From the IMG/VR virus record IMGVR_UViG_3300025012_000043, positions 48,590-112,589 of that record: a stretch of DNA of 64,000 nucleotides; one strand, written 5' to 3'. Within the stretch, counting starts at the first letter, position 1, and each line of letters starts with the position of its first letter. Positions 1 through 28,244 of this stretch are shown here, in pieces. Below the pieces are notes generated by a model. The model was not told the DNA's origin. It was given only the letters and a program-made list of their open reading frames with translations, and did not search any database. The position numbers were made by a program, and so were the translations under genes. The DNA is from a virus.

Positions 1-582
1 AAGAAATGCAAACTCAAAAGTTGGAATTGCTTCTAATGATTTAATGGAGGGAAAATTCTTAGATTGATTGCTTATCATTCTACTATTATTAAACTTTGCT
101 TCAACAAATGGTAGATGAGCAAACAACACGAATTTTATACCCATCATTCTTAAATCATTACATTTAAACTCAAACCATTCAACCGTATTAGTCCTACGAT
201 GTACTTCCCACGGCAACATAACGGCAACAATATCATCTTTAATACGAAATGTTGATTGCATTGTATCATATAAAAATACATTACTATGCAAATCAAGTGT
301 TTTTATTTCACTTAATAAATTTCTATCATCTGACAAATCATGATTACCAGTTAATATATGAACTCTAGTCCAATAAGGGAATGACTCCAGGAATTTATGA
401 AATCTTAATTCTTCTGCTCCGCCTTTCTGTATATCTCTACGATGATAGATATCACCAAGCAACACAACATTCTCACATCCGTGCTCATTAACAAATTTAA
501 TAATTTTATCTAAACACTCATCGGTGTCACTAACCCATTGTGAATCTAAATGAATATCTCCGACTATTAAAACTTTGGACAT
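1..582 (-). CDS. SbcD/Mre11-like metallophosphoesterase nuclease (3'-truncated by window edge; not in ORF track)
   Basis: Manual translation from ATG at 582: MSKVLIVGDIHLD...LLGDIYH...LTGNHD...FAH. These are calcineurin-like motifs. The frame is open to position 1 and lies in the replication module. Confidence 0.85.
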   Translation of the reverse strand, partial: MSKVLIVGDIHLDSQWVSDTDECLDKIIKFVNEHGCENVVLLGDIYHRRDIQKGGAEELRFHKFLESFPYWTRVHILTGNHDLSDDRNLLSEIKTLDLHSNVFLYDTMQSTFRIKDDIVAVMLPWEVHRRTNTVEWFEFKCNDLRMMGIKFVLFAHLPFVEAKFNNSRMISNQSKNFPSIKSLEAIPTFEFAFL

Positions 583-1658
583 CAGGCTACCTCCCTAATT
601 TCTGACGCTACCTCACGATAGCTCTCGTGGCTGATCCCCAGCCCGGCAATAAGAGTGTTGATCGCAGCATTAACATCGCGATCATGAACCGTCCCACAAA
701 CGTTACACTCCCAGTACCTTACCTTCAAGCCTGATTTCCCTGTTGGACCAGAACGCGCCCCACAGGTAGAACAGGTCATGGTGGAAAACTTAGATGGCAC
801 TTCGATATACTCTCTACCGCCTGCACGGCATTTGTAAGAAAGCATTGATCGAAGTTGTCCGTGGGCAGCTGCTCCCACGGACTTGCCAAACCCTGAACGA
901 GCCAAACCACCCAAATTATCCTTACTAATCGCAATGACTTGATTCTTGGACACTAATTCACGAGATATCTTATGATTTCTGTCCTTGCGCTGATTCTTAA
1001 TCCTTTCATGAAGTCTAGCAACTTGTTTACGATTTATACCACGCTGGGCTTGGCCCAAACGGATTAAATTATTCTGTAATTCCTTGGGGTGTTCAATCTT
1101 TTCACCAGTTGAAAGTGTAAGTAAGGTAACATATCCAGGGTCTATACCAACCTGATCATCAGAAACATGAGGGATAACATTAGGTTGGGCATTTATATTT
1201 AAACACAAGTACCAGCCAGAAGCCCGTTTAATAATGCGGCCTGAATTTATCTTGCCTTCAGGGATATCCTGTTTATGGAATTTTACTAAACCTAGCAATG
1301 GCATTCTAACCCTATTATTTAGGGGTGGTTTAATGGGGTCTGGAAATGGGATAGAATTTAACTTATTTCGACGGCCCTTAAATCTTGGCTTCCTAGAAAT
1401 TTTCTTAAAACAACGTTGCCAAGATAACCAAGTTTGATCTAACATGCCCTGTATAGTATGGCTGGGGATGCCAAGTTTGCCACTATGGCCAGTGAGTAAA
1501 TTCTGAAATGTTTTTCGTGAATAATAAACCTTATCCCTGGCATCTAACTCAATTTTACGAATAGCCCAATTCCAGACAGAAGTAAGATGAAACAGCCAAG
1601 TATTTAACTGGGCCTCTTGAACCTTGGTTAACTTTAATTTACGTTGATATTGAATCAT
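582..1658 (-). CDS. tnpB: TnpB-family RNA-guided nuclease with atypical RuvC-II, no adjacent TnpA
   Basis: N-terminal HTH-like region, KPRFK, RuvC-I VGIDPG, Zn finger CSTC/CNVC, RuvC-III HDRDVNAAIN. The usual hhhEDL of RuvC-II reads IAISKDNL. Confidence 0.92.
   Translation of the reverse strand: MIQYQRKLKLTKVQEAQLNTWLFHLTSVWNWAIRKIELDARDKVYYSRKTFQNLLTGHSGKLGIPSHTIQGMLDQTWLSWQRCFKKISRKPRFKGRRNKLNSIPFPDPIKPPLNNRVRMPLLGLVKFHKQDIPEGKINSGRIIKRASGWYLCLNINAQPNVIPHVSDDQVGIDPGYVTLLTLSTGEKIEHPKELQNNLIRLGQAQRGINRKQVARLHERIKNQRKDRNHKISRELVSKNQVIAISKDNLGGLARSGFGKSVGAAAHGQLRSMLSYKCRAGGREYIEVPSKFSTMTCSTCGARSGPTGKSGLKVRYWECNVCGTVHDRDVNAAINTLIAGLGISHESYREVASEIREVA
587..645 (-). ncRNA. Putative 3' part of TnpB omega-RNA scaffold plus guide, overlapping the tnpB 3' end
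   Basis: Minus-strand hairpins GGCUG-GGGAU-CAGCC (643-629) and GCUAUC-GUGA-GGUAGC (622-607, GNRA loop), then GUCA (606-603). omega-RNAs typically overlap the tnpB 3' end. Boundaries are inferred. Confidence 0.45.
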
Positions 1659-1891: not shown

Positions 1892-4800
1892 CTACTCCCT
1901 AATTACCGCATATATAGTCTGCCCAACAATATCTGTTAACGCTTTGGCTATAGTATTATTCAATATATCGAGATTCACAATATCACCAACAACCTGCTTA
2001 ATTAACATCCCCTCCATTTTTGATGGTTGCTTCATAAACCCAAGATTCTTGATCTTAATACCATATTGTGGCAATATTGGTTTACCAATTAATGTAAGCC
2101 CCTTGCCACGCTTACTACTGTATTTTACTATTGCCTTCAAAATAACTGGCGCAAATTTTTTGGCTAATGATGTCTTAATACACCCATAATTCACTCCACT
2201 AATAATCTTGTCATCTAAGTCTTCCGTATTAACATTAATATTCCTATCATGACATCCCTCTCGATCTATTAAAGAAACTGACCCAAATTTATTCCATGTT
2301 TGATCTTTCTTTGGATATATAACCTCAATCCCATTATTAATCCCATATATATATACGACTGATTGTGTTGGTAATGCTAGTGCCTTAGTAAGGGAGATGG
2401 CACCAACTGAATCTGCTAATGCCTGATACAAATCCAATACTGGATCAACATCAAGAAGTCCTATAGTACCTGATTCATTTTCCAATATCTCAGCCGACTC
2501 ATACTCTTCTTGCTTAACAAACCATGGCATAGTAATCATATTATTTGGTAGATCTAAACTAATCTGCCCATTCTCCATTGCTTTTTTATAGGCTGGCTTG
2601 TCAAATGCCCCAGATTCATTATATTTAATTGTCGCAGTTTTAATAGCTATACTCTTAGTACGTACATATTTCTTAATCTCTTGTATGTTTTTAACGATAT
2701 CCTTCCTATTTAATGTGGGATCAAACAAAAACGCTCCAGCCAATGCTAATTGTGAAATCTGGTTAGATGGGACGCTTTTGTTACGATTAATAAAATCAGC
2801 AAAACATTTATATTCTCCATTCATCTCACGTTCTTTAATAACCACTTTAGCCGATGATTCACCGATTCCCTTCACAGAAGACAAGCCAATATAAATAGTA
2901 TCTTTGAAAGCAGAAAATACTAGTTTTGACTTATTAATATTTGGCCTAGAGATCTTAATCCCCAATTTCTTACAGTCCGCTATTATAATTGAATGCTGGT
3001 CTGAATCAGTCATTATAAGATTGGCGCACATAAATTCTGTAGGATAATTTGCCTTCAAATATGCGGTTATATAAGTAATAACACCATACGCCGCAGCATG
3101 AGCCTTCGGCCACATATACCTTGCTGATGGCTTAATAAGCCCAAATATATATTCAGCGAATTCTTTTGTTTTGCCAAATCTAATAGCACTAGTTATAAAT
3201 TTCTCACCCTCTTCGTCAATTTCTTTGACTAATTTTTTACCAACAACCTTGCGCAAATGATCGGCTTCGGCCATTGAATATCCAGCCACCCTACGTGCTA
3301 TTTCCATGATCTGTTCTTGAAATAACATCATATAATGTGTAGGCGCAAGAACATCATCAATACATGGGTCAATTTTTGTCGGTGGCATCAACCCATTTTT
3401 AGTTCTTATATATTTCTCAGCCATAGACATTTTGATTACTTCATCATATGCCAAGGCCCCTGGCCTATATAAAGCATTCATGGCTATGATATGCTCAAAT
3501 TCTGTAGGAATCAATCCTTTCATCATATTTGTAAACCCATCACTTTCAGCCTGGAAAACACGACACGTATTGCCATCTTGTAATAATTTAAACGTTTTCA
3601 TGTCATCAAGCGGAAGTGTATATGGGTCAATATTAACCCCGTGATTTTCTTTGATCAACTCACATGTGATCTTAATAATATCTAATGTTGTTAAGCCAAG
3701 CAAATCAAATTTAACCAGCCCTACCTTTGATGCGACATACATATCACACATAAGCGCTGTTTCTGACTCACTATTTACCTTAAATGTTGGTATTATATCA
3801 CTAAACCGATCTTTTGAAATAATAACTCCCGATGCATGGATAGACACCGATTTAGGATTACCAGATAATCCCATAGCAAAATCATACCAGCTTTTATCAA
3901 CACGTGGGGATTTAAAGGCTTTCATCTTCTCCATAGCAGATATGATACTCTCTTCTTCTCTTTTGGCGGTCTCTTCAAATAACTCCTTGGGTTCCAATTC
4001 ATCCAATGCCCCGAGATCTTTAATTAAATCATCTACTCGCCTACGATCTGGTTCTATTGCTCGGATGGCCTCACGAATAGCTAACTTAGTAGTCATATTA
4101 TTAAATGTTGCAATCTTAGATACCTTGTCAGCACCAAAGATTGATTGAACTATCTCAATTACTTCTGGCCGCCGCCGTTGTTCAAAATCAATATCAACAT
4201 CTGGAAGATCAATACGACTGGGATTTAAAAACCTTTCAAACATGAGTTTATATTTAATCGGATCTATACCAGAAATCCCGAGAGCAAACAATACAAGACT
4301 ACCAGCACTACTTCCCCGGCCCGGTCCAATCAAGATCCCTCTTTTACGCACTTCCTTAATAACAATACCAAGGATTAGAAAGTAAGAAGAAAAATTGAGT
4401 TTCGAAATAATCCCCAATTCATATTCTAATCTATCTTTGTACTCCTTGGTGGCAACCCCTCTAGTTTTAAGGCCCTCATAAGCAAGAGTCTTTAAATATT
4501 CATCATTGGTCTCTATGTTTGCAGGTAAGAACGACTTGGGTAATTCTGGCATATACTTACCCATTTTGAACTCTATATTATAATCTTCTAACTTTTCATA
4601 GATCTCCATGGTATTATCAAATGCTACCTTAGGAATATTTGACGCAAACTTCTCTAATTCACCACGAGTCTTCATATAATATTCAGCATTCAGAATAGCT
4701 GGCTTACTTATGTCGTCTGGAAATTCACCATATACTACCCCACGTTTTCTATCTAAAATATGTGTACCAAACTGAAGTGATAACAGTGCATCCTGAACTT

Positions 4801-5428
4801 CAGCATCACTTTTATTTAAATAATGAACATCATTAGTAATAATCGGCTTAATATGAAACTTTTCTGCCATTTCTAACATAACATCTACCCAACCAGCTTG
4901 CATTGGTACGCCGGTTTCCATGACTTCCACATAAAGGTCATCTTTAAAAATTGATTTTAAACGAGATACTGTGGCCACAGCCTCATCAGCTTTATCATTA
5001 TAAATGTCTCTAGCAATTAACCCGTGTAAACATGCAGTTGAACAGATAATGCCCTCACTAAATCTGGCAATAACATCTAATGACATTCTTGGCTTATAAT
5101 AAAAATATTCAAAAGCATCAGACACTATCTTTATTAAATTTTGATATCCAATACGATTCTTAGCGATTAAAACTATATGCCCAAGTTTCTCTCTACCTTC
5201 AAATTTCCTCTCTTTTGATACATACCCCTCAATGCCTATGCCGCACTTCAAATCAAACTCTTTGCAAGCCTCGTAAAATGGAATGGCACCAAACATTGTG
5301 CCATGGTCAGTTAAACAAGCCCCCTGAAACCCAAGCTTCTTGGTATGCTCTACTATTTTCTTAGGTGATGTGGTGCCGTCCATCAATGAATAAAATGAGT
5401 GCTGGTGGCAATGTATGAAATCTTGCAT
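1892..5428 (-). CDS. dnaE: DNA polymerase III alpha subunit (family C)
   Basis: PHP domain (HQHS, LTDHG, TNDVHY), GPGRGSSAGS, FERFLNP, PDVDIDF, HASG, KFDLLGL. Start reassigned to ATG 5428 (AAAGGA SD, directly after the upstream stop). Confidence 0.97.
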   Translation of the reverse strand: MQDFIHCHQHSFYSLMDGTTSPKKIVEHTKKLGFQGACLTDHGTMFGAIPFYEACKEFDLKCGIGIEGYVSKERKFEGREKLGHIVLIAKNRIGYQNLIKIVSDAFEYFYYKPRMSLDVIARFSEGIICSTACLHGLIARDIYNDKADEAVATVSRLKSIFKDDLYVEVMETGVPMQAGWVDVMLEMAEKFHIKPIITNDVHYLNKSDAEVQDALLSLQFGTHILDRKRGVVYGEFPDDISKPAILNAEYYMKTRGELEKFASNIPKVAFDNTMEIYEKLEDYNIEFKMGKYMPELPKSFLPANIETNDEYLKTLAYEGLKTRGVATKEYKDRLEYELGIISKLNFSSYFLILGIVIKEVRKRGILIGPGRGSSAGSLVLFALGISGIDPIKYKLMFERFLNPSRIDLPDVDIDFEQRRRPEVIEIVQSIFGADKVSKIATFNNMTTKLAIREAIRAIEPDRRRVDDLIKDLGALDELEPKELFEETAKREEESIISAMEKMKAFKSPRVDKSWYDFAMGLSGNPKSVSIHASGVIISKDRFSDIIPTFKVNSESETALMCDMYVASKVGLVKFDLLGLTTLDIIKITCELIKENHGVNIDPYTLPLDDMKTFKLLQDGNTCRVFQAESDGFTNMMKGLIPTEFEHIIAMNALYRPGALAYDEVIKMSMAEKYIRTKNGLMPPTKIDPCIDDVLAPTHYMMLFQEQIMEIARRVAGYSMAEADHLRKVVGKKLVKEIDEEGEKFITSAIRFGKTKEFAEYIFGLIKPSARYMWPKAHAAAYGVITYITAYLKANYPTEFMCANLIMTDSDQHSIIIADCKKLGIKISRPNINKSKLVFSAFKDTIYIGLSSVKGIGESSAKVVIKEREMNGEYKCFADFINRNKSVPSNQISQLALAGAFLFDPTLNRKDIVKNIQEIKKYVRTKSIAIKTATIKYNESGAFDKPAYKKAMENGQISLDLPNNMITMPWFVKQEEYESAEILENESGTIGLLDVDPVLDLYQALADSVGAISLTKALALPTQSVVYIYGINNGIEVIYPKKDQTWNKFGSVSLIDREGCHDRNINVNTEDLDDKIISGVNYGCIKTSLAKKFAPVILKAIVKYSSKRGKGLTLIGKPILPQYGIKIKNLGFMKQPSKMEGMLIKQVVGDIVNLDILNNTIAKALTDIVGQTIYAVIRE

Positions 5429-5429
5429 G

Positions 5430-6488
5430 TTATCCTTTCTTACTGTTTCTTCTTGCGTACACATTATTAAATATTACATCCATAGTTTCTGGTAATAAAG
5501 TACTGGTTATAATATTCAATTGTTTCTTTTCTATCGTATTCATGGCCTCCATAACCATTGATCTAATATTACCTGGAGCATGAATTAGTCCTGATATGGC
5601 ATTATACCAATCACGAGGCCGTTGCTCTTCTACTAATATACCATTTACACCATTAGTAATAACTTCTTGATATGGAACAATATTAGATGCCACTGTAACC
5701 GCACCAACCGCCGTATACTCTAACCATTTAATATTACTCTTACTCTTATTAAAAATATTGTGTTCAAGTGGTACTATACCAATATGTGGCTGAATAGATA
5801 CCAATGTTTGTAGATAGTCTTTAACTGGTAACCAAGGTATATACTTAATACGAGTATCATCCTTTAGCCCTGCTGGTATCCATCCCATAAAAAACAATTT
5901 AATCTTATCACCAAAGGTATCGAGTAACTTAATAATCGCTCCCTCTACACCCTTAAAATCATCAATATGTGAAGGCCCTCCAGCATATACTATGCGTATT
6001 TCTTTATCAACATTATATGGGCGCTGAGCAATAAAATTTTTGTCTAATTCAATCATATTAGGGATACAATAAATATTCCTATTATAACATTTCATTTGAT
6101 TCTTTAAAAATTCGGTAGAAACTATAACTGCATCCGCTGATTTCATAAAATTTCTAACATTTTGCTTAGCATTATTATCTATAAACTTATAGGCAGGATT
6201 TATGGGCCGTACATTAAAGAAATCATCATCAGTTTCATATCCCACTATTGCACCAGATTCCTTTGCGGCATTCCATAACGGTTTAACTTTGTCCTCAAAA
6301 TGCCTTTGGAATATAATCATATCATAACAATACATATCAGCTATCTGTAATTCAGTAGCACAAACTATATGATATATATCAGTATTTAATTGTAAATACC
6401 AGGCTGGTAACATACACCGATAGTTTCCACAGCCTTGCCGATCGGAAAGCGTATATAACAATTTTCTTTTATTTACTCGCTTCCTCAT
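5430..6488 (-). CDS. GT-B (GT4-like) glycosyltransferase
   Basis: GCGNYR, YETDDD, VSTEFL, GGPSH..D and PLEHNIFNKSKSNIKWLEY motifs, typical of phage GT-B proteins. Confidence 0.8.
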   Translation of the reverse strand: MRKRVNKRKLLYTLSDRQGCGNYRCMLPAWYLQLNTDIYHIVCATELQIADMYCYDMIIFQRHFEDKVKPLWNAAKESGAIVGYETDDDFFNVRPINPAYKFIDNNAKQNVRNFMKSADAVIVSTEFLKNQMKCYNRNIYCIPNMIELDKNFIAQRPYNVDKEIRIVYAGGPSHIDDFKGVEGAIIKLLDTFGDKIKLFFMGWIPAGLKDDTRIKYIPWLPVKDYLQTLVSIQPHIGIVPLEHNIFNKSKSNIKWLEYTAVGAVTVASNIVPYQEVITNGVNGILVEEQRPRDWYNAISGLIHAPGNIRSMVMEAMNTIEKKQLNIITSTLLPETMDVIFNNVYARRNSKKG

Positions 6489-7907: not shown

Positions 7908-10652
7908 TTATTTGCAGCGACTCCATCCGCAAGCCGAGCACTCTATACACTTTGACATATGCACTACGGGATTTCCACACTCAGGACAAGCTTGTTTATA
8001 TGTAATCGCTGAATCATGTTTATCCTTATTTTGAACCAATTTATTTTTATTCTCTTTTGCTCCTACATGAGTTTCTATCGCCACACATATGGCATCAGAT
8101 AATGATGTAATGGTACGCCCACCCTTATAGAAAGCCGTCTCCCCAGCGGAGATACCACGAAGTTGTTTCGTGATATATTTTGTAGACACACCACACCGCA
8201 TAAGTAACGATACCAACCTACCAAGTGCTTCGGCTTCTGCTGCGATCGGTGACCCGGACCGCCCGGCCTTAATAATAACCTCACACAACCCAATATCATC
8301 TTCATTGACAGTGATTAGTGCGTCACCGAACCCAAAAGGTATCTCATATGTACGACCAGTTGGGGCCTCGATTCTAACTCTTGGCCCAAACCCACCATTC
8401 TGCTCAATTGGTTTGGCCTGTTGTCCGGAAGTCAAAACCTGCACACCCTTTGATCCATCACGATAAATAGTTACACCTTTACAACCAAGTTTATATGATA
8501 AACGATATGCCGCATCAATATCTTCTATTGTTGCGTCCTTCTTCATATTAATAGTCTTACTAATTGAATTACCAACATATTTCTGAAATGCTGCTTGCAT
8601 ACGTACGTGCCACTCGGGAGCAATATCATGTGCAGTAACAAATATATACTTAATATCTTCTGGTATATTCATCTTCTGTACTGATCCATTGTGTTCATTA
8701 AATATGACATCAAATAGATCTGGGATATTTAAATTGCGTCTACGTATTTCCTCATCAAAATCGCCATGCAATTCACTCAATTTTTTATCGCCAAACGCCA
8801 TACGATTATATGCAACGGCGTATAAAGGTTCAATGCCTGATGATACACCAGCAATAAGAGCTATTGACCCAGTTGGGGCAATGGTAGTAACAATTGCATT
8901 TCTGCGGGCCTCACCAATCTTATCTAACTCCCAAGCTGGGAATATGCCTTTCTCTTTGCCTAATTCAATACTGGCTTCAATCGCACGAGTATTAATATAC
9001 CCCATGATATGTTCTGCTTGCTCTAGCCCTTGCATTGAATTATATTGAATCCGCATCTTAATAAGTGCATCAGCAAAACCCATGACACCAAGACCAATCT
9101 TTCTGGTCTTCATGATGGCATCTTTAATCTCTTGAAGAGGTTGTGGGCTAACATCAAGCACAGCATCCAAAAACCTAACAGCCAATGGTATTAACTTATT
9201 TAATTTTTCATAATCCCACTCATAGATAACTACACCTTCTGAATCAACCTTTTTCTTTAGCATAGCAACAAGATTAATAGACCCCAATACACATGATTCA
9301 GAGGGATATAATATTGTCTCACCACAATTTCGCCCAAACACACCACTAGAAACAACAAATTTACCATCTTTTTTGCTCGTTATTATCCCATAATTATGAT
9401 TGTCATCCACAGTTATATTATATACATCATCATATCCATAGAATCCCACTGATTTTACTTTATGATTATAATATTGAACCGCCTCATCTAAGTTTTTATT
9501 ATATTTATATTTATCTCTATGCCTATGTATATTGGCAACACTATTACTATTAAATGGCATTAAACTATCGCCTTCTTTTAACTCCTTAAGTTCTACCTTC
9601 TCACCATTACGCCTAATAAATTTGTGATCTGGTGTCGCAATAACCGTCGAATCGTCATCGAGTGTGAGCTTCCAAACTTCCTTCTTTTCTCCCGTAAGCC
9701 TAGGATTTTTGCCCCATTTGATCTCTACCTGTCCATTCTCCAAATTACGTGAATACACTGGCACATCATTACCCTCTTCAACTAATTGTCTAATACTAAC
9801 CGCATTACGTCCATCAGCAACGGCAATTAGTGTATCTCCAACGACACATGGGTTTGATGCTCGCAAAATCCCAAGCGATGGCGTTGGATTGTCACGATTA
9901 ACTCTATCAATCCACAATACACCTGGGTCACCAATACGCCACGCCATCGACACAATCTTATCCCATACTTCTTTGGCATCTAATTCTCCGACTTTCTCTT
10001 TATTACCATAGACAGGAAAATATAAATTATATTTCTTACCCTCGTCTCTTGCCTTCATAAATTCATCGGTAACAGCAACTGAAATATTCATATTCTGCGC
10101 AGCACCAGAATGCTTCATATTAATAAATTCAAGAATGTCTGGATGATGGACAGATAAAATACCCATATTGGCTGATGGTCTAATACCACCTTGATCAACT
10201 ACTGACATTGCATCAGCATAAATTTTAATAAACTGAACAACACCACGAGTCTTATATCCGGTTGACTTAATAATAGTATCTCGTGGTCTAATATTAGACC
10301 AGTCCATCCCGACACCACCACCAGCCTTTTGAATTAAGGCAGCCTTGCGATAAGTACTAAAAATATCATCTAATGAATCCTGGACATCCAACACAAAGCA
10401 CGCTGGATAGGAACATCCATTCCCAGTACCAGCGTTTACTAATGTTGGGGTATTTGGTAAAAATTCTAGATTGGCCATCATGTTAGTATATGATTCAACC
10501 AATTCTTCTTTCTTCTTCTTGGGAAGCTCTTCACAACTGGCTATATCCTTAGCTACCCGTGAAAACAATTCCTCTGGCGTTTCATATGTAGACCCCTTTT
10601 TACGAAGGTACCTTCTACGCAGTACCGTAAGAGCATTTTGGCTTAAGTGCAT
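7908..10652 (-). CDS. nrdJ: Class II (B12-dependent) ribonucleotide reductase with intein, C-terminal TSCPD-like domain and Zn ribbon
   Basis: FLPNTPTL, ACFV, GGGVG, NP|CGE split by an intein, CVLGSINL, RKIGLGVMG, TIAPTG, SKTIN, KGVTIYRDGS, CPECG...CSACGWSRC. Confidence 0.95.
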   Translation of the reverse strand: MHLSQNALTVLRRRYLRKKGSTYETPEELFSRVAKDIASCEELPKKKKEELVESYTNMMANLEFLPNTPTLVNAGTGNGCSYPACFVLDVQDSLDDIFSTYRKAALIQKAGGGVGMDWSNIRPRDTIIKSTGYKTRGVVQFIKIYADAMSVVDQGGIRPSANMGILSVHHPDILEFINMKHSGAAQNMNISVAVTDEFMKARDEGKKYNLYFPVYGNKEKVGELDAKEVWDKIVSMAWRIGDPGVLWIDRVNRDNPTPSLGILRASNPCVVGDTLIAVADGRNAVSIRQLVEEGNDVPVYSRNLENGQVEIKWGKNPRLTGEKKEVWKLTLDDDSTVIATPDHKFIRRNGEKVELKELKEGDSLMPFNSNSVANIHRHRDKYKYNKNLDEAVQYYNHKVKSVGFYGYDDVYNITVDDNHNYGIITSKKDGKFVVSSGVFGRNCGETILYPSESCVLGSINLVAMLKKKVDSEGVVIYEWDYEKLNKLIPLAVRFLDAVLDVSPQPLQEIKDAIMKTRKIGLGVMGFADALIKMRIQYNSMQGLEQAEHIMGYINTRAIEASIELGKEKGIFPAWELDKIGEARRNAIVTTIAPTGSIALIAGVSSGIEPLYAVAYNRMAFGDKKLSELHGDFDEEIRRRNLNIPDLFDVIFNEHNGSVQKMNIPEDIKYIFVTAHDIAPEWHVRMQAAFQKYVGNSISKTINMKKDATIEDIDAAYRLSYKLGCKGVTIYRDGSKGVQVLTSGQQAKPIEQNGGFGPRVRIEAPTGRTYEIPFGFGDALITVNEDDIGLCEVIIKAGRSGSPIAAEAEALGRLVSLLMRCGVSTKYITKQLRGISAGETAFYKGGRTITSLSDAICVAIETHVGAKENKNKLVQNKDKHDSAITYKQACPECGNPVVHMSKCIECSACGWSRCK
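9327..9848 (-). mobile_element. Mini-intein (174 aa, no intact homing endonuclease) inserted before the thiyl-radical Cys of NrdJ
   Basis: Starts CVVGDT; block B ATPDH; block F DVYNITVDDNHNY; ends VFGRN followed by extein Cys (CGE). Confidence 0.92.
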
Positions 10653-10670: not shown

Positions 10671-11126
10671 TTATTCTGAAAATCCCGCTGTACTTCCGAA
10701 ACCATTCTCACCTCGTTCAGTCTTGGGCAATTCATCAACATATTCTATACGATATACAACCGATTGATGTAGCACTAACTGCGCCAGTCGGTCTCCCCTA
10801 TTAACCACTACATCATATTTATTGGGATTCAATGCAAACACAAGCAAAGCGCCAGTAAAGCCCTCATCTATTGTCCCATCCATAATAAGTAACTTCTTTT
10901 TAGCAAATGTTGAACTACGAGGTCTGATTGATGCCCACGTTCCCCAGGGCAATTTTATACTAATTCCAGTTGGGATATTTATCATACCACCACTCGGGAC
11001 AATAATTTTCTCTTCTTCAATACATACAACCAAGTCTAAACCTATATCACCTTCTCGGGCTGGCTTTAATACCGGGGGTATAAATGCCGCATTATCTAAT
11101 ACTTTTACCTGTAGCCTATTGCTCAT
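10671..11126 (-). CDS. dut: Trimeric dUTPase-family protein (substrate uncertain)
   Basis: Five motifs: GLDL, PRSS, GTIDEGFTG (Tyr->Phe), GDRLAQL, RGENGFGST. Start ATG 11126 with GGAGGAG SD. Confidence 0.88.
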   Translation of the reverse strand: MSNRLQVKVLDNAAFIPPVLKPAREGDIGLDLVVCIEEEKIIVPSGGMINIPTGISIKLPWGTWASIRPRSSTFAKKKLLIMDGTIDEGFTGALLVFALNPNKYDVVVNRGDRLAQLVLHQSVVYRIEYVDELPKTERGENGFGSTAGFSE

Positions 11127-11628
11127 TAAACTCTCCTCCTTCACAAATATTCAATGACTCACCAAGCGTAAACTCCTCTGTGAGCTCTATAAAATTTTCA
11201 GCATTTATCTGCACAATCTTATTATTTAAAATATTCCCTAATTCTCTATAATTAGTAATCCATCTAGTATTAAATTGTTTGGCGACCCATTTCATATATA
11301 CTGATATCTTTACATCTGCGTCCGCGCACAAAATGACCGATTGATGTAATTTGTTTTTATTATCTATACACCACGAAACCTCTAACCACGTACCAACAGT
11401 TGGTATTCCATTGATATAAACTACAACAATGTTGGCCCTTTCTAAGGCCAAACGATTAACATCAACTATATAATCTGGGTCCACATCACCCATTGGTATA
11501 AATGCCCTGCCTGGCATAAATAATGTAACATTTTGGTCCTTGTTAACTAAATTGTTAATTACATCATAATAAGCCAATTTATCGGTATTATTATCAACAT
11601 TCCCCGCACAATATACAGAGACTGACAT
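11116..11628 (-). CDS. Nucleoside 2-deoxyribosyltransferase-like / dNMP N-glycosidase
   Basis: VYCAG (Tyr), F.P, ANIVVV, TVGTWLE (nucleophile Glu), matching the NDT/DNPH1 fold. Confidence 0.7.
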   Translation of the reverse strand: MSVSVYCAGNVDNNTDKLAYYDVINNLVNKDQNVTLFMPGRAFIPMGDVDPDYIVDVNRLALERANIVVVYINGIPTVGTWLEVSWCIDNKNKLHQSVILCADADVKISVYMKWVAKQFNTRWITNYRELGNILNNKIVQINAENFIELTEEFTLGESLNICEGGEFNEQ

Positions 11629-12180
11629 TTACTCCTCCATCATCCTAAGTAGTGTCATCACCCTATCAACCTCTGCCGAAGTATTCCCATTAATTAGTGA
11701 CTCTAAAAACTTAATTTTATCGTGTCTAAGCATATTGAAACATATGTCTCTAATTTGTTGCATATTTGTTTCATCCTTAGTAATCCTCTTCATTATTACT
11801 TCAGCAGTATCATAATCATCACGATTCCTTTTAATTAAGCGCCCAATCCGTTTAATCGCTGGCGCATCAATATAGACCACGCTCCATAAATATGCCTTGA
11901 GGTTCTTGCTAATCCAGGTAACCTGTCCCTCTGTCCTAGGAACTCCATCAACCAATATAATTTCCCTATTCGTTCTATTAATGCGATCACTGATCCCTCC
12001 CATGATAGCATCATCATTATAATAAAGATCACCATTAGCCAGATCCTTATGTGAATCAGCAAGACTTCTAACTATATCGCCAGATGAAATAAATTCTGCC
12101 CCAACTATGGCTGATACTTGTTTAGAAATGGTAGTCTTACCCGAACCAGCCGGACCGATTACCCAGAGAATTCGTCTCAT
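11629..12180 (-). CDS. Adenylate-kinase-like (d)NMP kinase
   Basis: GPAGSGKTT P-loop, ISSGDIVR, LVDGVPRT, R.R.DD lid-like segment. Confidence 0.88.
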   Translation of the reverse strand: MRRILWVIGPAGSGKTTISKQVSAIVGAEFISSGDIVRSLADSHKDLANGDLYYNDDAIMGGISDRINRTNREIILVDGVPRTEGQVTWISKNLKAYLWSVVYIDAPAIKRIGRLIKRNRDDYDTAEVIMKRITKDETNMQQIRDICFNMLRHDKIKFLESLINGNTSAEVDRVMTLLRMMEE

Positions 12181-12219: not shown

Positions 12220-14865
12220 TTACACATATGTTGGTATAATATTTGTGTCTATATTAATCTCCTTACCAAAATTTGCTGCCTCTCCAGCCCTAAGCGACCC
12301 AACATTAGGGTCTTTATCATAAAACACATCAATCATTATATCAGAAGGTCCCATTCTAACCTTGGCTATATTCATTGTAATATTGCCACGTTTTCCACCA
12401 AATCTACCAATATCATCTAATGATTTTTTAGTAAAAATAACGACCTTGGCCGCGTCTTGTGATAATTTGTACGCACCACCAACCCCCTCAACTGATCCAA
12501 ACGCTTCTGATTTATCTTTATTCTGTTGTGCAACGGTAACAATACACAACGGATCACGAGGATTCATTGCTCTATTTTGTAATAGTGAACTAGCAACATC
12601 TAATACTTCCCATTTCTTCCCTACTTTATTATCTGATTTAATTAATTGAACATAATCAATAAACACATGTTTACATCCAAATTTTAATCTATGATATTCA
12701 ATGATGCCCATGATCTCTGAAATAGTAAAATTATTTGGCACTATAACATATCCAGGAGAAGAACGAAGCCGATTATATGAATCCATCATCTTTTGCCATT
12801 CTACTGACCCTTGAGGATACTTCCCAAGCCTAATCATCGTATTTGAAAGATCACAATCAATAGATATCATTCTTGTCCAAATGTCATCCCTAGACATTTC
12901 AGCAGAAATGAACAATGATGGTTCCTGTGATATGGTGATGACATCATTAAACCAATTTACGGCGACAGATGTTTTACCAACACCAGTATGCGCGGCTACC
13001 ATATGCACATATCCTAATTCCAACCCAGACCAAGCTGTATTAAGTGTCGCCCATCTCTCAGATAATGGTGTACCAAGAATCGCCTTGCCGGATTTAGACC
13101 GCTCTATGTAAAGGTCTGAGAACCTATCAGCTAGATCTTGTGTTGATGATGTAACCATAGTATTTCTACGATCATTAATCTCAACTATTGAAGCACGATG
13201 TTCCTGCATGATAACATCTACTGGTTTGTCTATATCCATAGACTCTGCCAATAATTTCGCCGCCACCTTGCTAGCACTACGTCGCATATGCAATTCTTTA
13301 ATCTGTTGAATACAAAACTCAACATCTAAATTATGTTTCTGTAACGTTGCCCAATATTGTTGCAATGGTTTTTTAATGGTACTTAGTAAAATTTCTTCAG
13401 ATATGGTGCTATATTTCATCAAACATGAACACACAGTCTTATATAGATCTGAATTATTACGTACATAAAATTCGTGCTCAGCGATCTCGTGCCTGACAGT
13501 ATAGGCAAATTCCTTATCTTCGACCATTAATTTAATAATAGTACTCTCGGCTTCCTTATTATGTATGTCCCTTGGATTTGACGAATATGTGATGAAATAA
13601 TCAAGCGCATTACAAATATTATACTTGATCTCTATATATTTAGATGCCATCTCACGATAAACCGTACTAAATTTATTAATATATTTACACACTACATCCA
13701 AGAATTTTATCTCTTCCGTTAATCCAGGTACCACACTATAAGCATTATCAATATAGAAATGGATGGGATGTACACTGGCATTAATATATTTACCAATCCC
13801 ATCGGCCCCAAATTCTTTCAATATCTCATCTGGATCTCCGCCCTGCAATACAACAAATGATACAAATATATTACCATATATAGTAAACTCATCAGCGATT
13901 TTTATCAACTCTCTCTTACCTGGCTCATCACCATCTGGTATTAATACTACTTCATTAACTTTATATTTAGACAACGCCCCAATTAAAACTGGTGATAGAA
14001 ATTTAGACAGACCACAAGTAGCTATTGTATTTTTAAGCCCGTGTGAATACATCTGTAATAAATCAATTTGTCCTTCTACCACGTTCAATTTATAATTATT
14101 ATTTCTCAATTCCTTTCTAGCTAAATTAAGCCCATAAATCGAAGTCTCATCATACATCTGAGAACTTGATGATGACCCGACATATTTAACACTACCAGAA
14201 AATGGTCTTGTATAAAATTGTGTGGCGTGTCCACTACTATTAAACACTGGGAATACTATGGCATTATCCCACATCATTGGATTACATAAATCAATGTCCT
14301 TCAAATCAGTGTATGGTATGGTAGTACCAAGTTTCCTAGTAATGGCTTCATGTAACCACTGGGTGGATACCGTATACCCTATCTTAAATGTTTTTAGGGT
14401 TTCAATATCAATCTTACGTTCATTTACCATAAAAACAGATGAATCACCCAAATCCCCGAGAAGCGCTTCGTGGCATACTTCAACCACAGCATCATAAATT
14501 TTAGAGTGGAAGATGTGACGGGAGTCTTGCGAGGAATCGAGGAAGGGGGTTAGATCTATATTATATCGTTCAGCAAGTAACTGAGTGGCCTCAATTACTT
14601 CAACACCCTCAGCAAACTGTACGAAGTCAATCGCATTGCCGCCACGTTTACATCCGAAACAGTAAAAATAATGTTCACTTATTTCACCCGTAGTATTTAC
14701 TTTGAACGATGGCACACTCTCCGAATGAAATGGGCAACAGAAGGCAGAATTAACACCCTGTACCTTACCATCTTCTCCAGTGTGCTGTTTGACCAACTCA
14801 ATCAAACTTACCTTATTTAGAACTAAACCTATAGCACCAGTCAGATTAGTTAAACGTAATCCCAT
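12220..14865 (-). CDS. Fused DnaG-type primase / DnaB-type helicase
   Basis: CHC2 finger (CPFH...CFGC), Toprim (VEGQID, PDGDEPG, DPDE), DnaB Walker A AHTGVGKT, SAEM, IDYVQL, QDA, K.R.G. Confidence 0.95.
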   Translation of the reverse strand: MGLRLTNLTGAIGLVLNKVSLIELVKQHTGEDGKVQGVNSAFCCPFHSESVPSFKVNTTGEISEHYFYCFGCKRGGNAIDFVQFAEGVEVIEATQLLAERYNIDLTPFLDSSQDSRHIFHSKIYDAVVEVCHEALLGDLGDSSVFMVNERKIDIETLKTFKIGYTVSTQWLHEAITRKLGTTIPYTDLKDIDLCNPMMWDNAIVFPVFNSSGHATQFYTRPFSGSVKYVGSSSSSQMYDETSIYGLNLARKELRNNNYKLNVVEGQIDLLQMYSHGLKNTIATCGLSKFLSPVLIGALSKYKVNEVVLIPDGDEPGKRELIKIADEFTIYGNIFVSFVVLQGGDPDEILKEFGADGIGKYINASVHPIHFYIDNAYSVVPGLTEEIKFLDVVCKYINKFSTVYREMASKYIEIKYNICNALDYFITYSSNPRDIHNKEAESTIIKLMVEDKEFAYTVRHEIAEHEFYVRNNSDLYKTVCSCLMKYSTISEEILLSTIKKPLQQYWATLQKHNLDVEFCIQQIKELHMRRSASKVAAKLLAESMDIDKPVDVIMQEHRASIVEINDRRNTMVTSSTQDLADRFSDLYIERSKSGKAILGTPLSERWATLNTAWSGLELGYVHMVAAHTGVGKTSVAVNWFNDVITISQEPSLFISAEMSRDDIWTRMISIDCDLSNTMIRLGKYPQGSVEWQKMMDSYNRLRSSPGYVIVPNNFTISEIMGIIEYHRLKFGCKHVFIDYVQLIKSDNKVGKKWEVLDVASSLLQNRAMNPRDPLCIVTVAQQNKDKSEAFGSVEGVGGAYKLSQDAAKVVIFTKKSLDDIGRFGGKRGNITMNIAKVRMGPSDIMIDVFYDKDPNVGSLRAGEAANFGKEINIDTNIIPTYV

Positions 14866-27772: not shown

Positions 27773-28244
27773 TCAATTTGGGATTACTTCTTCTCCTTCT
27801 TCCTCGCTCTCATATTGATCCTTTAGTATATCCATAATAAGATATTCAATAAACATTTCTACTTCATCCTTTGCCTTCACACTAAGCTGTACATTTAAAT
27901 TCCCAATTGCCTCCTTAACCAGTGCGTCCCGGATTTCCTCATATCTTGGGAAAAGATATTCGGCTATTTGTGCTTCCTGTTCATCTGTCAATCCTGGTAA
28001 TGCATCATATTCTTCATCAGTCATATTACTCTCCCTCTCCTTCTTCTGATGTCTCTTCTTCTATATCCCCTGAATCAATCTCAAACGCAATATAGGTTTT
28101 ACCACTCTCCTCGTCTACAATAATCTGTGCCTCTGGTCCCTCCTCATTAGCCTCCTCTGTAGGCTCTTCCTCTGAAGCCACTACCGGAACTGGCTCACCT
28201 GGGTCTATCGCAGTTTCAAACTTGTCATCATCACTAGGCATCAA
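27773..28244 (-). CDS. Two small highly acidic proteins (27773-28024, 28026-28244)
   Basis: Glu/Asp-rich ORFs with SD sequences. Confidence 0.6.

What the first reader, a model, noticed from the sequence alone, without database searches (positions are those of the whole stretch)
10671..12180. Kinase + NDT-like N-glycosidase + dUTPase-like trio as a possible replacement for DatZ/MazZ
Seen: three abutting genes directly upstream of nrdJ. They encode an AK-like kinase, an NDT/DNPH1-fold protein that keeps the Tyr and Glu but has Asn at two usually acidic positions, and a trimeric dUTPase with motif-3 Tyr->Phe. Established: DNPH1/MilB-type enzymes cleave (d)NMP N-glycosidic bonds. Inference: the kinase phosphorylates dZMP, the glycosidase destroys dAMP, and the dUTPase fold makes dGMP from dGTP or destroys dATP. 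This would be a different enzymatic route to a Z-only dNTP pool.
Basis: inference. Interest (0 to 1): 0.7.

Follow-up and report, generated by a model that had tools for sequence, protein, structure and literature searches.

The report
Adenine-purging gene trio of Z-DNA phage
Three tightly coupled genes in a large uncultured phage (a nucleotide kinase, a distant relative of the dAMP-splitting enzyme DmtZ, and a dUTPase) most likely clear adenine nucleotides so the phage can build DNA with 2-aminoadenine. This route was published in February 2026, so only the recurring kinase and the unusual phage lineage are new.

Summary
Window 10671-12180 (minus strand) carries three translationally coupled genes between the primase-helicase gene and nrdJ. 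They encode an adenylate-kinase-family NMP kinase (183 aa), an NDT-fold protein (170 aa) and a canonical trimeric dUTPase (151 aa from ATG 11126).

The contig encodes a PurZ with the Asp13-to-Ser hallmark and a PurZ0-type NTP site. Neither this contig nor its 92%-complete 178-kb relative has DatZ, MazG, DUF550, DUF5664 or a PolA/DpoZ.

Poubanne et al. (NAR 2026, PMC12884076) showed that PurZ0 phages use DutZ (a dUTPase that hydrolyses dATP, dGTP and dUTP) and DmtZ (an NDT-fold dAMP hydrolase and deoxyribose-5-phosphate transferase). The NDT-like protein is a very divergent DmtZ relative: hhalign 96.8%, E 3e-10, with Tyr6, Asp12, Pro, Asn, Gly and Glu all conserved. The dUTPase is DutZ-like by context, and the tree only weakly supports this. 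Its motif-III Phe varies among orthologues.

The kinase is the unpublished part. It sits beside the dUTPase or the primase gene in at least six divergent PurZ lineages and in 0 of 42 PurZ-negative control contigs. The scan had already noted the same trio on the 178-kb relative (e1-5818162).

The parts
11629..12180 (-). Adenylate-kinase-family NMP kinase with a short LID (183 aa); candidate dZMP kinase
   Evidence: Pfam ADK scores 39.1 bits against a cut-off of 26.8. The best PDB sequence hits are AK1 and UMP/CMP kinases. The P-loop GPAGSGKT, SSGDIVR, DGVPRTEGQ and RLIKRNRDD motifs are invariant across the family. An AGGGG RBS lies upstream.
11116..11628 (-). Divergent DmtZ-like NDT-fold protein (170 aa); predicted dAMP N-glycosidase and deoxyribose-5-phosphate transferase
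   Evidence: hhalign against six DmtZ sequences gives 96.8% probability and E 3e-10. The only tblastn hit in 50,697 phage records is the DmtZ of Gordonia phage Archimedes. The AF2 model and Foldseek place it in the NDT/MilB/DNPH1 fold. Tyr6, Asp12, Pro39, Asn58, Gly79 and Glu83 are conserved.
10671..11126 (-). Trimeric dUTPase (151 aa from ATG 11126); predicted DutZ-like dATP/dGTP/dUTP pyrophosphatase
   Evidence: PF00692 scores E 1.4e-23. It is 35-39% identical to Ghobes and Wayne DutZ. It falls in a clade with all PurZ-context dUTPases (SH-aLRT 91) but outside the starred actinophage DutZ subclade. The start codon is supported by P0029 and by the RBS.
7908..10652 (-). Class II ribonucleotide reductase NrdJ with an intein; last gene of the same coupled run
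   Evidence: Pfam finds Ribonuc_red_lgC (E 7e-122), Intein_splicing and TSCPD. Its start lies 18 nt after the dUTPase stop.
12220..14865 (-). Primase-helicase; conserved upstream neighbour of the kinase
   Evidence: Pfam finds DnaB_C, Zn_ribbon_DnaG and Toprim. The order primase-helicase then kinase recurs in G001, G008, G023, G027, G056 and Bacillus phage vB_BpsS-140.
26528..27709 (-). PurZ (PurZ0-type signature); the enzyme that defines the Z pathway these genes serve
   Evidence: PF00709 scores E 1.4e-50 and phrog_1211 scores E 4e-66. GSEGKG shows the Asp13-to-Ser change, TTVT is present, and Asp is kept at the NTP-base site (FLDY).

Best explanation
The three genes, together with nrdJ, form one translationally coupled operon that edits the purine deoxynucleotide pool of a PurZ0-type, probably 2-aminoadenine (Z) genome phage.

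Proposed flow. NrdJ supplies deoxynucleotides. [quoted passage not shown] The NDT-fold protein acts like DmtZ: using Glu83 as the covalent nucleophile, held by Tyr6 and Asn58, it cleaves dAMP to adenine plus deoxyribose-5-phosphate and can pass the sugar-phosphate to free Z base to give dZMP. PurZ turns dGMP into the dZMP precursor, and host PurB finishes it. The adenylate-kinase-family enzyme then phosphorylates dZMP to dZDP, a step so far attributed to host kinases.

Shown here: gene structure and coupling, folds, homology, conserved catalytic residues, absence of DatZ/MazZ, and recurrence of the gene neighbourhood.

Inferred: every substrate specificity, and that the phage DNA contains Z at all.

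The confidence given is for the module as a whole being a DutZ/DmtZ-type Z-pathway kit. The kinase's specific role as a dZMP kinase is less certain, at about 0.35-0.4.
For: Gene structure and coupling.

PurZ: it has the Ser hallmark and a PurZ0-type Asp at the NTP site.

Missing alternatives: no HD/HD_3, MazG, DUF550, DUF5664 or PolA is found in this contig or in the 92%-complete 178-kb relative G001. This holds both for six-frame Pfam searches and for tblastn with the DatZ and DUF5664-DUF550 proteins of SH-Ab 15497 and phiVC8.

DmtZ homology: profile-profile probability 96.8%, E 3e-10, with the mutagenesis-validated residues aligned (Tyr6=Tyr6, Asp12=Asp12, Pro39=Pro57, Asn58=Asn77, Gly79=Gly99, Glu83=Glu103). 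These residues are conserved in all orthologues. The only phage tblastn hit is a DmtZ. The fold is confirmed.

Order: NDT then dUTPase matches Ghobes gp53/gp55 and the Wayne fusion.

Published activities of DutZ and DmtZ: PMC12884076.

Conservation: the trio is kept in G001 and in metagenome locus L028, and in the same order in the distant G008.

Kinase: an ADK-family kinase sits beside the dUTPase or the primase gene in G008, G023, G024 (PurZ-kinase-dUTPase contiguous), G027, G056 and Bacillus phage vB_BpsS-140. In a control set of 46 dUTPase-bearing viral contigs, the only ADK hit over the cut-off lies in a PurZ-positive contig, and 0 of 42 PurZ-negative contigs have one.
Against: No enzyme activity or DNA composition is known for this uncultured phage.

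The dUTPase does not fall inside the well-supported actinophage DutZ subclade. Its tblastn ranking mixes Z and non-Z phages, so purine activity is inferred from context only.

The NDT-like protein is only 26-28% identical to DmtZ. It carries a roughly 15-residue insertion and a long C-terminal helix that DmtZ lacks. It also diverges unusually fast (38% identity between G000 and G001, against 63-85% for its neighbours), so its substrate could differ.

An adenylate-kinase-like enzyme that accepted dAMP would work against adenine removal.

Kinase enrichment is modest (pooled Fisher one-sided p 0.028) and the lineages are not independent. G023 has both DatZ and the kinase-dUTPase pair, so the kinase-dUTPase pair is not strictly exclusive with DatZ.

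The contig is only 76% complete.
Confidence: 0.65

Rival explanations
1. This is an ordinary dNTP-supply and sanitation operon unrelated to Z. The dUTPase is a strict dUTPase that keeps uracil out of DNA and feeds dTMP synthesis. The kinase is a general (d)NMP kinase recycling host nucleotides for NrdJ. The NDT-like protein is a DNPH1/Rcl-type dNMP hydrolase with another preference.
For: All five dUTPase motifs are canonical, and the best PDB match is an ordinary chlorella-virus dUTPase. dUTPases are common in phages: 1071 records were hit. The genes sit next to an RNR, as in many large phages. The window dUTPase lies outside the starred DutZ subclade. Wayne DutZ itself still prefers dUTP.
Against: The genome has PurZ but no other recognisable dATP-removing enzyme. 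The NDT-like protein's only phage relatives are DmtZ enzymes, including the Asp12 implicated in adenine recognition. ADK-type kinases were found in 0 of 42 PurZ-negative control contigs. A contiguous PurZ-kinase-dUTPase run occurs in G024.
Confidence: 0.17
2. The dUTPase and the NDT-like protein work as DutZ and DmtZ, but the kinase is not a dZMP kinase. It may be an adenylate or UMP/CMP kinase that rebalances ribonucleotides (for example regenerating ADP/ATP or NDP substrates for NrdJ), or a dGMP/dTMP-directed kinase. Host guanylate kinase would then still handle dZMP. This rival overlaps the best explanation for two of the three genes.
For: The published pathway assigns dZMP phosphorylation to host kinases (introduction of 10.1101/2025.10.22.683976, Fig. 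7 legend). The closest solved relatives are AK1 and UMP/CMP kinases. Most PurZ contigs (45 of 50) have no ADK-family kinase, so it is dispensable for Z synthesis in general.
Against: The kinase is repeatedly and tightly coupled to the dUTPase, and once directly to PurZ, in divergent Z lineages, and it is absent from PurZ-negative controls. The Gln at the adenylate-kinase base-reading position is conserved in all of them. That fits a base with a 6-amino group such as Z.
Confidence: 0.35
3. The NDT-like protein has drifted to a different job. It might mainly salvage free Z base by transfer, attack a different dNMP (dGMP, dZMP or hmdUMP), or act as a counter-defence nucleotide hydrolase.
For: It diverges much faster than its neighbours. 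It carries a family-specific insertion, an invariant Asn73 and a C-terminal helix absent from DmtZ. Ghobes DmtZ already cleaves dZMP as well as dAMP. Some relatives of this operon lack the gene altogether: L031, vB_BpsS-140, G023 and G024.
Against: All DmtZ catalytic and adenine-contact residues are invariant across the family. Its position immediately upstream of the dUTPase is conserved.
Confidence: 0.15

Closest known systems
DmtZ of Gordonia phages Ghobes and Archimedes, and the N-terminal domain of Arthrobacter phage Wayne DmtZ-DutZ (Poubanne et al., NAR 2026, PMC12884076)
   Same: It has the NDT/DNPH1 fold and a Tyr/Asn/Glu triad with Asn instead of the usual Asp. Asp12 follows the first strand, the transferase-type Pro is present, and no Asp occupies the 5'-OH site. 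It is encoded just upstream of the dUTPase in a PurZ0-type genome that lacks DatZ/MazZ.
   Different: It is only 26-28% identical. It has a roughly 15-residue insertion (about 105-120), a long C-terminal helix and an acidic tail. Asn73 is invariant where DmtZ has Ala, and Asn13 replaces Gln13. It occurs in low-GC (36%), >110-kb DnaE-replicated phages rather than 40-80-kb actinophages with DpoZ. Known DmtZ hits in the phage collection come only from Arthrobacter, Gordonia and Streptomyces phages.
DutZ of Ghobes and Wayne (same paper)
   Same: It is a trimeric dUTPase with all five motifs. It sits next to dmtZ in a PurZ0 genome and is the only candidate dATP/dGTP pyrophosphatase present.
   Different: It is 35-39% identical and lies outside the supported actinophage DutZ subclade. 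Motif III has Phe here, although this is polymorphic among its orthologues. Purine activity is not demonstrated.
DatZ + MazZ (or DUF550/DUF5664) system of PurZ phages such as S-2L, phiVC8 and SH-Ab 15497
   Same: The predicted outcome is the same: remove dATP and supply dGMP for PurZ.
   Different: The folds are unrelated (HD phosphohydrolase and MazG-type). None of them is present in this genome or in its 178-kb relative.
adk-dut pair of Bacillus phage vB_BpsS-140 (MH884512.1)
   Same: The order primase, AK-like kinase, dUTPase is the same, in a PurZ-encoding phage with a syntenic PurZ-X-RecA-helicase replication module. Its kinase is the best phage hit for the window kinase.
   Different: There is no NDT-like gene between the kinase and the dUTPase. 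Its PurZ has Asn at the NTP site (PurZ type). The kinase is only 30% identical. No function has been tested.
DNPH1/Rcl and MilB/BcmB (d)NMP N-glycosidases
   Same: The fold is shared, as is covalent Glu catalysis on 5'-monophosphates.
   Different: Those enzymes carry Asp in the triad and have different base preferences. They have no link to Z genomes.

Membership tests
DmtZ (NDT-superfamily dAMP hydrolase / dR5P transferase) | NDT/DNPH1 alpha-beta fold | tested here: met
   The AF2 model has pLDDT 80 and pTM 0.76. The Foldseek top hits are NDTs, MilB, DNPH1 and BcmB, at E 6e-5 to 1e-3 and probability 1.00.
DmtZ (NDT-superfamily dAMP hydrolase / dR5P transferase) | Detectable sequence homology to characterised DmtZ | tested here: met
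   hhalign of A4 against A5 gives 96.8% probability and E 3e-10. Pairwise BLASTP against Archimedes DmtZ gives E 3e-10. It is the only tblastn hit among 50,697 phage records.
DmtZ (NDT-superfamily dAMP hydrolase / dR5P transferase) | Catalytic triad Tyr6 / Asn77 / Glu103 (Ghobes numbering) | tested here: met
   Tyr6, Asn58 and Glu83 align to these residues and are invariant in all orthologues.
DmtZ (NDT-superfamily dAMP hydrolase / dR5P transferase) | Asp12 (proposed adenine N6 contact) and Pro57 | tested here: met
   Asp12 and Pro39 are aligned and invariant.
DmtZ (NDT-superfamily dAMP hydrolase / dR5P transferase) | Lid Trp124 from the second monomer | tested here: inconclusive
   Two conserved Trp residues (Trp114 and Trp123) lie in the equivalent segment. 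MAFFT aligns Trp123 and L-INS-i aligns Trp114. No dimer model was made.
DmtZ (NDT-superfamily dAMP hydrolase / dR5P transferase) | dAMP-specific hydrolysis and transfer to Z base | not testable with these tools
   This needs purified protein.
DutZ (purine-active dUTPase of PurZ0 phages) | Trimeric dUTPase with motifs I-V | tested here: met
   PF00692 scores E 1.4e-23. The alignment to 3ca9 shows all motifs.
DutZ (purine-active dUTPase of PurZ0 phages) | Membership of the monophyletic DutZ clade | tested here: inconclusive
   The quick ML tree places it with all PurZ-context dUTPases (SH-aLRT 91), apart from 7 non-Z references, but outside the 96* subclade holding the characterised DutZ. There were few non-Z references, and the careful tree did not return.
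DutZ (purine-active dUTPase of PurZ0 phages) | Encoded in a PurZ0 genome without DatZ/MazZ, next to dmtZ | tested here: met
DutZ (purine-active dUTPase of PurZ0 phages) | Hydrolysis of dATP and dGTP | not testable with these tools
   This needs an enzyme assay. No sequence determinant of purine acceptance has been published.
PurZ0-type 2-aminoadenylosuccinate synthetase (genome context) | Asp13 to Ser, with Asp retained at the NTP-base site | tested here: met
   GSEGKG and FLDY are seen in the alignment to E. coli PurA, Ghobes, Wayne, phiVC8 and SH-Ab 15497.
PurZ0-type 2-aminoadenylosuccinate synthetase (genome context) | Placement inside the PurZ0 clade | tested here: inconclusive
   The window and G001 form their own deep branch. 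The backbone of the 18-sequence tree is unresolved.
Adenylate kinase family (PF00406), short-LID type | P-loop, NMP-binding (S/T)GDxxR, DGxPR..Q, and LID Arg/Asp cluster | tested here: met
   Pfam ADK scores 39.1 bits against a cut-off of 26.8. The motifs are invariant in 14 family members and in 8 PurZ-linked kinases.
DatZ / MazZ system | HD-domain dATPase and MazG/DUF550 pyrophosphatase present in the genome | tested here: not met
   No hit was found in G000 or G001 with PF01966, PF13023, PF03819, PF04447 or PF18909, or by tblastn with known DatZ and DUF5664-DUF550 proteins. PF04447 and PF18909 had no positive control.

The most novel reading that the evidence does not exclude
The adenylate-kinase-family gene is a dedicated phage dZMP kinase and the missing phage-encoded step of Z-nucleotide synthesis. 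It would have been acquired repeatedly and coupled to the DutZ-type dUTPase in many PurZ lineages. In this lineage the complete kit (NrdJ, DutZ-like, DmtZ-like, kinase, PurZ0-type) would serve a bacterial-type DnaE replicase instead of DpoZ.
Probability: 0.35. Interest if true: 0.6.

Novelty: new variant of a known kind. Interest (0 to 1): 0.42.

Why it matters
The DutZ/DmtZ route to an adenine-free dNTP pool was known only from small actinobacteriophages with a DpoZ polymerase. This locus extends it to large, low-GC, DnaE-replicated phages, through a DmtZ branch so divergent that Pfam and PHROGs miss it.

The more useful lead is the kinase. dZMP phosphorylation is still attributed to host enzymes or to 'uncharacterized phage proteins'. 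A kinase repeatedly welded to the dUTPase, and once directly to PurZ, in independent Z lineages gives a concrete candidate that is easy to test. If it is dZMP-selective, it would also help efforts to make Z-DNA in vivo or enzymatically.

Tried and rejected
1. DNA-level search of the trio against 50,697 phage records found no match.

2. PDB sequence search with the NDT-like protein gave only chance hits. PHROGs gave nothing.

3. The search for related loci with the NDT-like alignment in IMG/VR failed: A3 was too divergent and A4 found no confirmed relative. The relative G001 was reached through PurZ instead.

The contexts of the metagenomic homologues P0002, P0005 and P0007 could therefore not be read.

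6. The careful and first quick dUTPase trees returned no answer from the script machine. The cached quick tree was used, so only SH-aLRT support is available.

7. Motif-III Tyr-to-Phe was considered as a marker of changed specificity and rejected. The characterised DutZ enzymes have Tyr, and orthologues of this gene vary.

8. Distant AK-like hits (27-33% identity) in three unannotated phage records and three metagenome contigs show no PurZ, dUTPase or NDT neighbours within the DNA fetched. They were judged uninformative.

9. Strict mutual exclusion with DatZ was rejected for the kinase-dUTPase pair, because G023 has both.
Full report
**What is there.** The window is the last 64 kb of a 112.6-kb IMG/VR viral contig (GC 36%, CheckV completeness 76%). 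Almost all genes lie on the minus strand. Between the primase-helicase gene (12220-14865) and an intein-containing class II ribonucleotide reductase gene, nrdJ (7908-10652), lie three ORFs at 11629-12180, 11116-11628 and 10671-11144.

The sequence shows tight coupling. An AGGGG RBS precedes the kinase ATG. The kinase stop abuts the next ATG (GGAGGAGTAAATG). The second gene's stop overlaps an ATG at 11126 by 11 nt, behind a GGAGGAG RBS. nrdJ starts 18 nt after the third stop. The dUTPase therefore most likely starts at 11126 (151 aa), which matches the database protein P0029, rather than at the GTG at 11144.

**The three proteins.**

- **Kinase.** The first protein passes the Pfam adenylate-kinase threshold (39.1 bits against 26.8). 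Its nearest solved relatives are short-LID AK1 and UMP/CMP kinases. The P-loop, SSGDIVR, DGVPRTEGQ and RLIKRNRDD motifs are invariant across its family.
- **NDT-like protein.** The second protein has only a sub-threshold Pfam NDT hit, no PHROG hit and no PDB sequence hit. An AlphaFold2 model (pLDDT 80, pTM 0.76) matches NDTs, MilB, DNPH1 and BcmB.
- **dUTPase.** The third protein is a canonical trimeric dUTPase (PF00692, E 1.4e-23). Motif III reads GTIDEGFTG.

**Genome context.** A PurA-family gene at 26528-27709 carries the PurZ hallmark Asp13-to-Ser (GSEGKG) and the TTVT motif. It keeps Asp at the NTP-base site (FLDY), as the PurZ0 enzymes of Ghobes and Wayne do; phiVC8, SH-Ab 15497 and Bacillus phage vB_BpsS-140 have Asn there. 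In an 18-sequence tree it forms its own deep branch together with an 84%-identical gene from a 178-kb, 92%-complete IMG/VR contig, G001.

Neither contig has an HD or HD_3 domain (DatZ), MazG, DUF550, DUF5664 or a family-A polymerase. This holds for six-frame Pfam searches and for tblastn with the DatZ and DUF5664-DUF550 proteins of SH-Ab 15497 and phiVC8. The polymerase is a DnaE-type Pol III alpha.

**What the literature already says.** Poubanne et al. (NAR, February 2026, PMC12884076) showed the following.

- PurZ0 phages replace DatZ/MazZ by DutZ, a dUTPase homologue that hydrolyses dATP, dGTP and dUTP to the monophosphates.
- They also use DmtZ, an NDT-fold enzyme that cleaves dAMP to adenine and transfers deoxyribose-5-phosphate to the Z base.
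- DmtZ has a Tyr6/Asn77/Glu103 triad. Asp12 is essential, and Pro57 and Trp124 are notable.
- All 98 PurZ0 genomes in their set had dutZ, 85 had dmtZ, and 77 of those were fused in the order DmtZ-DutZ.

A bioRxiv study also links NDT and dUTPase domains to Z-modified contigs (10.1101/2025.10.22.683976).

**Is the NDT-like protein a DmtZ?** Several results say yes.

- Its only tblastn hit among 50,697 phage records is the DmtZ of Gordonia phage Archimedes. Pairwise BLASTP gives E 3e-10.
- A profile of the window family against a profile of six DmtZ sequences gives 96.8% probability and E 3e-10.
- The alignment puts Tyr6 on Tyr6, Asp12 on Asp12, Pro39 on Pro57, Asn58 on Asn77, Gly79 on Gly99 and Glu83 on Glu103. 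All are invariant in every orthologue, including the fast-diverged G001 copy.
- The position that binds the 5'-OH through Asp in true NDTs is Thr77. That fits a 5'-phosphate substrate.

Differences remain. Identity is 26-28%. There is an insertion of about 15 residues and a long C-terminal helix. Asn73 is invariant where DmtZ has Ala. The lid Trp cannot be placed unambiguously (Trp114 or Trp123). The family is rare: an exhaustive search of 1.8 billion representatives found four clusters. One of them (P0007) is fused to a MazG-like DUF1599 domain. That is a pyrophosphatase-plus-NDT pairing analogous to DmtZ-DutZ. Known DmtZ hits come only from Arthrobacter, Gordonia and Streptomyces phages, so this is a new, distant branch.

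**Is the dUTPase a DutZ?** It is 35% identical to Ghobes DutZ and 39% to Wayne DutZ. In a quick ML tree, all dUTPases from PurZ contexts and their metagenomic kin form a clade (SH-aLRT 91) that excludes seven non-Z references. However, the characterised DutZ enzymes sit in a starred subclade that does not contain the window protein. tblastn ranks Z and non-Z phages together.

The motif-III Phe is not informative. DutZ enzymes have Tyr, and close orthologues of the window gene have either residue (Tyr in G001 and L028, Phe in P0033, P0035, P0041 and P0043).

The argument for purine activity is contextual. It is the only candidate dATP/dGTP pyrophosphatase in a PurZ genome, and DmtZ needs a source of dAMP. 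The gene order NDT then dUTPase copies Ghobes gp53/gp55 and the Wayne fusion. I put DutZ-like function at roughly 60-65%.

**The kinase.** Neither paper mentions a phage kinase, and no paper in the library links an adenylate kinase to PurZ. [quoted passage not shown]

- The best phage homologue of the window kinase is the adk of Bacillus phage vB_BpsS-140. That phage encodes PurZ, has a syntenic replication module, and has the order primase-adk-dut.
- The order primase-helicase, kinase, NDT, dUTPase, nrdJ is kept in G001 and in metagenome locus L028. L031 has kinase and dUTPase without the NDT gene.
- I fetched the 80 IMG/VR PurZ-like loci closest to the window's. All 80 carry the Ser hallmark, 67 have Asp and 12 have Asn at the NTP site.
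- Of these, I searched the 50 contigs of at least 30 kb. dUTPase occurs in 29, NDT-like in 11, HD_3 in 1, and an ADK-family kinase over the cut-off in 5.
- The kinase neighbourhoods are telling:
  - G008 (178 kb, complete, PurZ 37% identical): primase-helicase, kinase, NDT-like and dUTPase in the same order within 3.4 kb.
  - G023: overlapping primase-helicase, kinase and dUTPase genes, and also a DatZ.
  - G024 (33 kb, complete): PurZ, kinase and dUTPase contiguous.
  - G027: kinase next to the primase-helicase gene and 3 kb from the dUTPase.
- All these kinases keep the adenylate-kinase Gln at the base-reading position.

As a control, I took 46 dUTPase-bearing viral contigs not chosen by PurZ. 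They gave one ADK hit over the cut-off. That contig (G056) is PurZ-positive (GSCGKG) and again has primase-helicase followed by the kinase. None of the 42 PurZ-negative contigs had one. Pooled, that is 6 of 54 against 0 of 42 (Fisher one-sided p 0.028). The lineages are not independent, and the samples are small and selected by similarity. I read this as a real but still modest association. It makes a dZMP (or Z-pathway) kinase the best single guess at about 35-40%.

**Mechanism proposed.** NrdJ makes deoxynucleotides. The dUTPase strips dATP and dGTP (and dUTP) to monophosphates. The DmtZ-like enzyme irreversibly removes dAMP and may reload the sugar-phosphate onto free Z. PurZ and host PurB convert dGMP to dZMP. 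The kinase raises dZMP to dZDP, and a host NDP kinase finishes the step to dZTP. A DnaE-type replicase then uses the adenine-depleted pool.

Gene structure, folds, homology, conserved residues, absence of the alternative enzymes and neighbourhood recurrence are shown. All substrate specificities, and the presence of Z in this phage's DNA, are inferred.

**Verdict.** The scan had also already reported the same trio on the 178-kb relative (e1-5818162). It had separately reported a kinase-pyrophosphatase fusion beside PurZ elsewhere (e1-3413255). I did not see that sequence, but its claim agrees with the recurrence I measured.

Three things remain new: a highly divergent DmtZ branch outside actinophages, the DutZ/DmtZ kit in large DnaE-replicated phages, and a recurrent AK-family kinase coupled to it. 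I rate this as a new variant of a known kind, of moderate interest.

**Limits.** Two tree runs returned no answer. PF04447 and PF18909 had no positive control in the search tool.

Noticed in passing
window 1892-5464 (and whole contigs G000, G001): The only DNA polymerase found is a DnaE-type Pol III alpha (PHP, DNA_pol3_alpha, finger and HHH_6 domains). No family-A polymerase or DpoZ is present in this contig or in the 92%-complete 178-kb relative, although both encode PurZ. Published Z phages use DpoZ or PrimPol, so a DnaE replicase working with dZTP would be a separate point of interest.
   Followed up: partly
window 11116-11628 versus L025:6553-7032 (G001): The NDT-like gene is only 38% identical between the two related phages. 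Its neighbours are far more conserved: kinase 69%, dUTPase 63%, NrdJ 81-85% and primase-helicase 81%. The catalytic residues stay invariant. This is unusually fast divergence for a metabolic enzyme.
   Followed up: partly
L025:8665-9494 (G001 nrdJ) versus window 7908-10652: The window NrdJ contains an intein (Pfam Intein_splicing, residues about 277-421). In G001 the NrdJ match is split, with about 830 nt of extra DNA between residues 369 and 374. This suggests a further or different insertion (intein, intron or homing element) at a nearby site.
   Followed up: no
protein P0007 (252 aa, metagenomic): A distant member of the NDT-like family is fused behind a MazG-like all-alpha domain (weak DUF1599/DUF6378 hits). 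This is a pyrophosphatase-plus-NDT fusion analogous to DmtZ-DutZ but built from a different pyrophosphatase fold.
   Followed up: partly
L137 (G024:C1:16281-19418) and L135 (G023:C1:47138-50545): A complete 33-kb phage has PurZ, an AK-like kinase and a dUTPase as three contiguous, overlapping genes. A complete 53-kb phage has overlapping primase-helicase, kinase and dUTPase genes and also a DatZ-type HD_3 gene. The kinase-dUTPase pair can therefore coexist with DatZ.
   Followed up: partly
window 24836-26131: A 431-aa ORF directly downstream of PurZ has no Pfam or PHROG hit. It shows weak similarity (E 2e-5) to the 402-aa hypothetical gene in the same position (PurZ-X-RecA) of Bacillus phage vB_BpsS-140. 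It is a conserved unknown neighbour of PurZ.
   Followed up: no
window 582-1658: A TnpB/Cas12f-like gene (OrfB_IS605 plus the TNB domain) lies between the DnaE gene and a calcineurin-like phosphoesterase (SbcD-like) gene. No TnpA was seen nearby. Other first-reader notes cover it.
   Followed up: no
window 5430-6488: A group-1 glycosyltransferase (phrog_7162, E 1e-39) overlaps the start of the DnaE gene inside the replication module. Whether it modifies DNA or protein is unknown.
   Followed up: no
window 28241-30091: A 616-aa ORF has only weak NAD-dependent ligase similarity (phrog_3869, E 1.9e-6; a BRCT hit below the Pfam cut-off). I did not examine it further.
   Followed up: no
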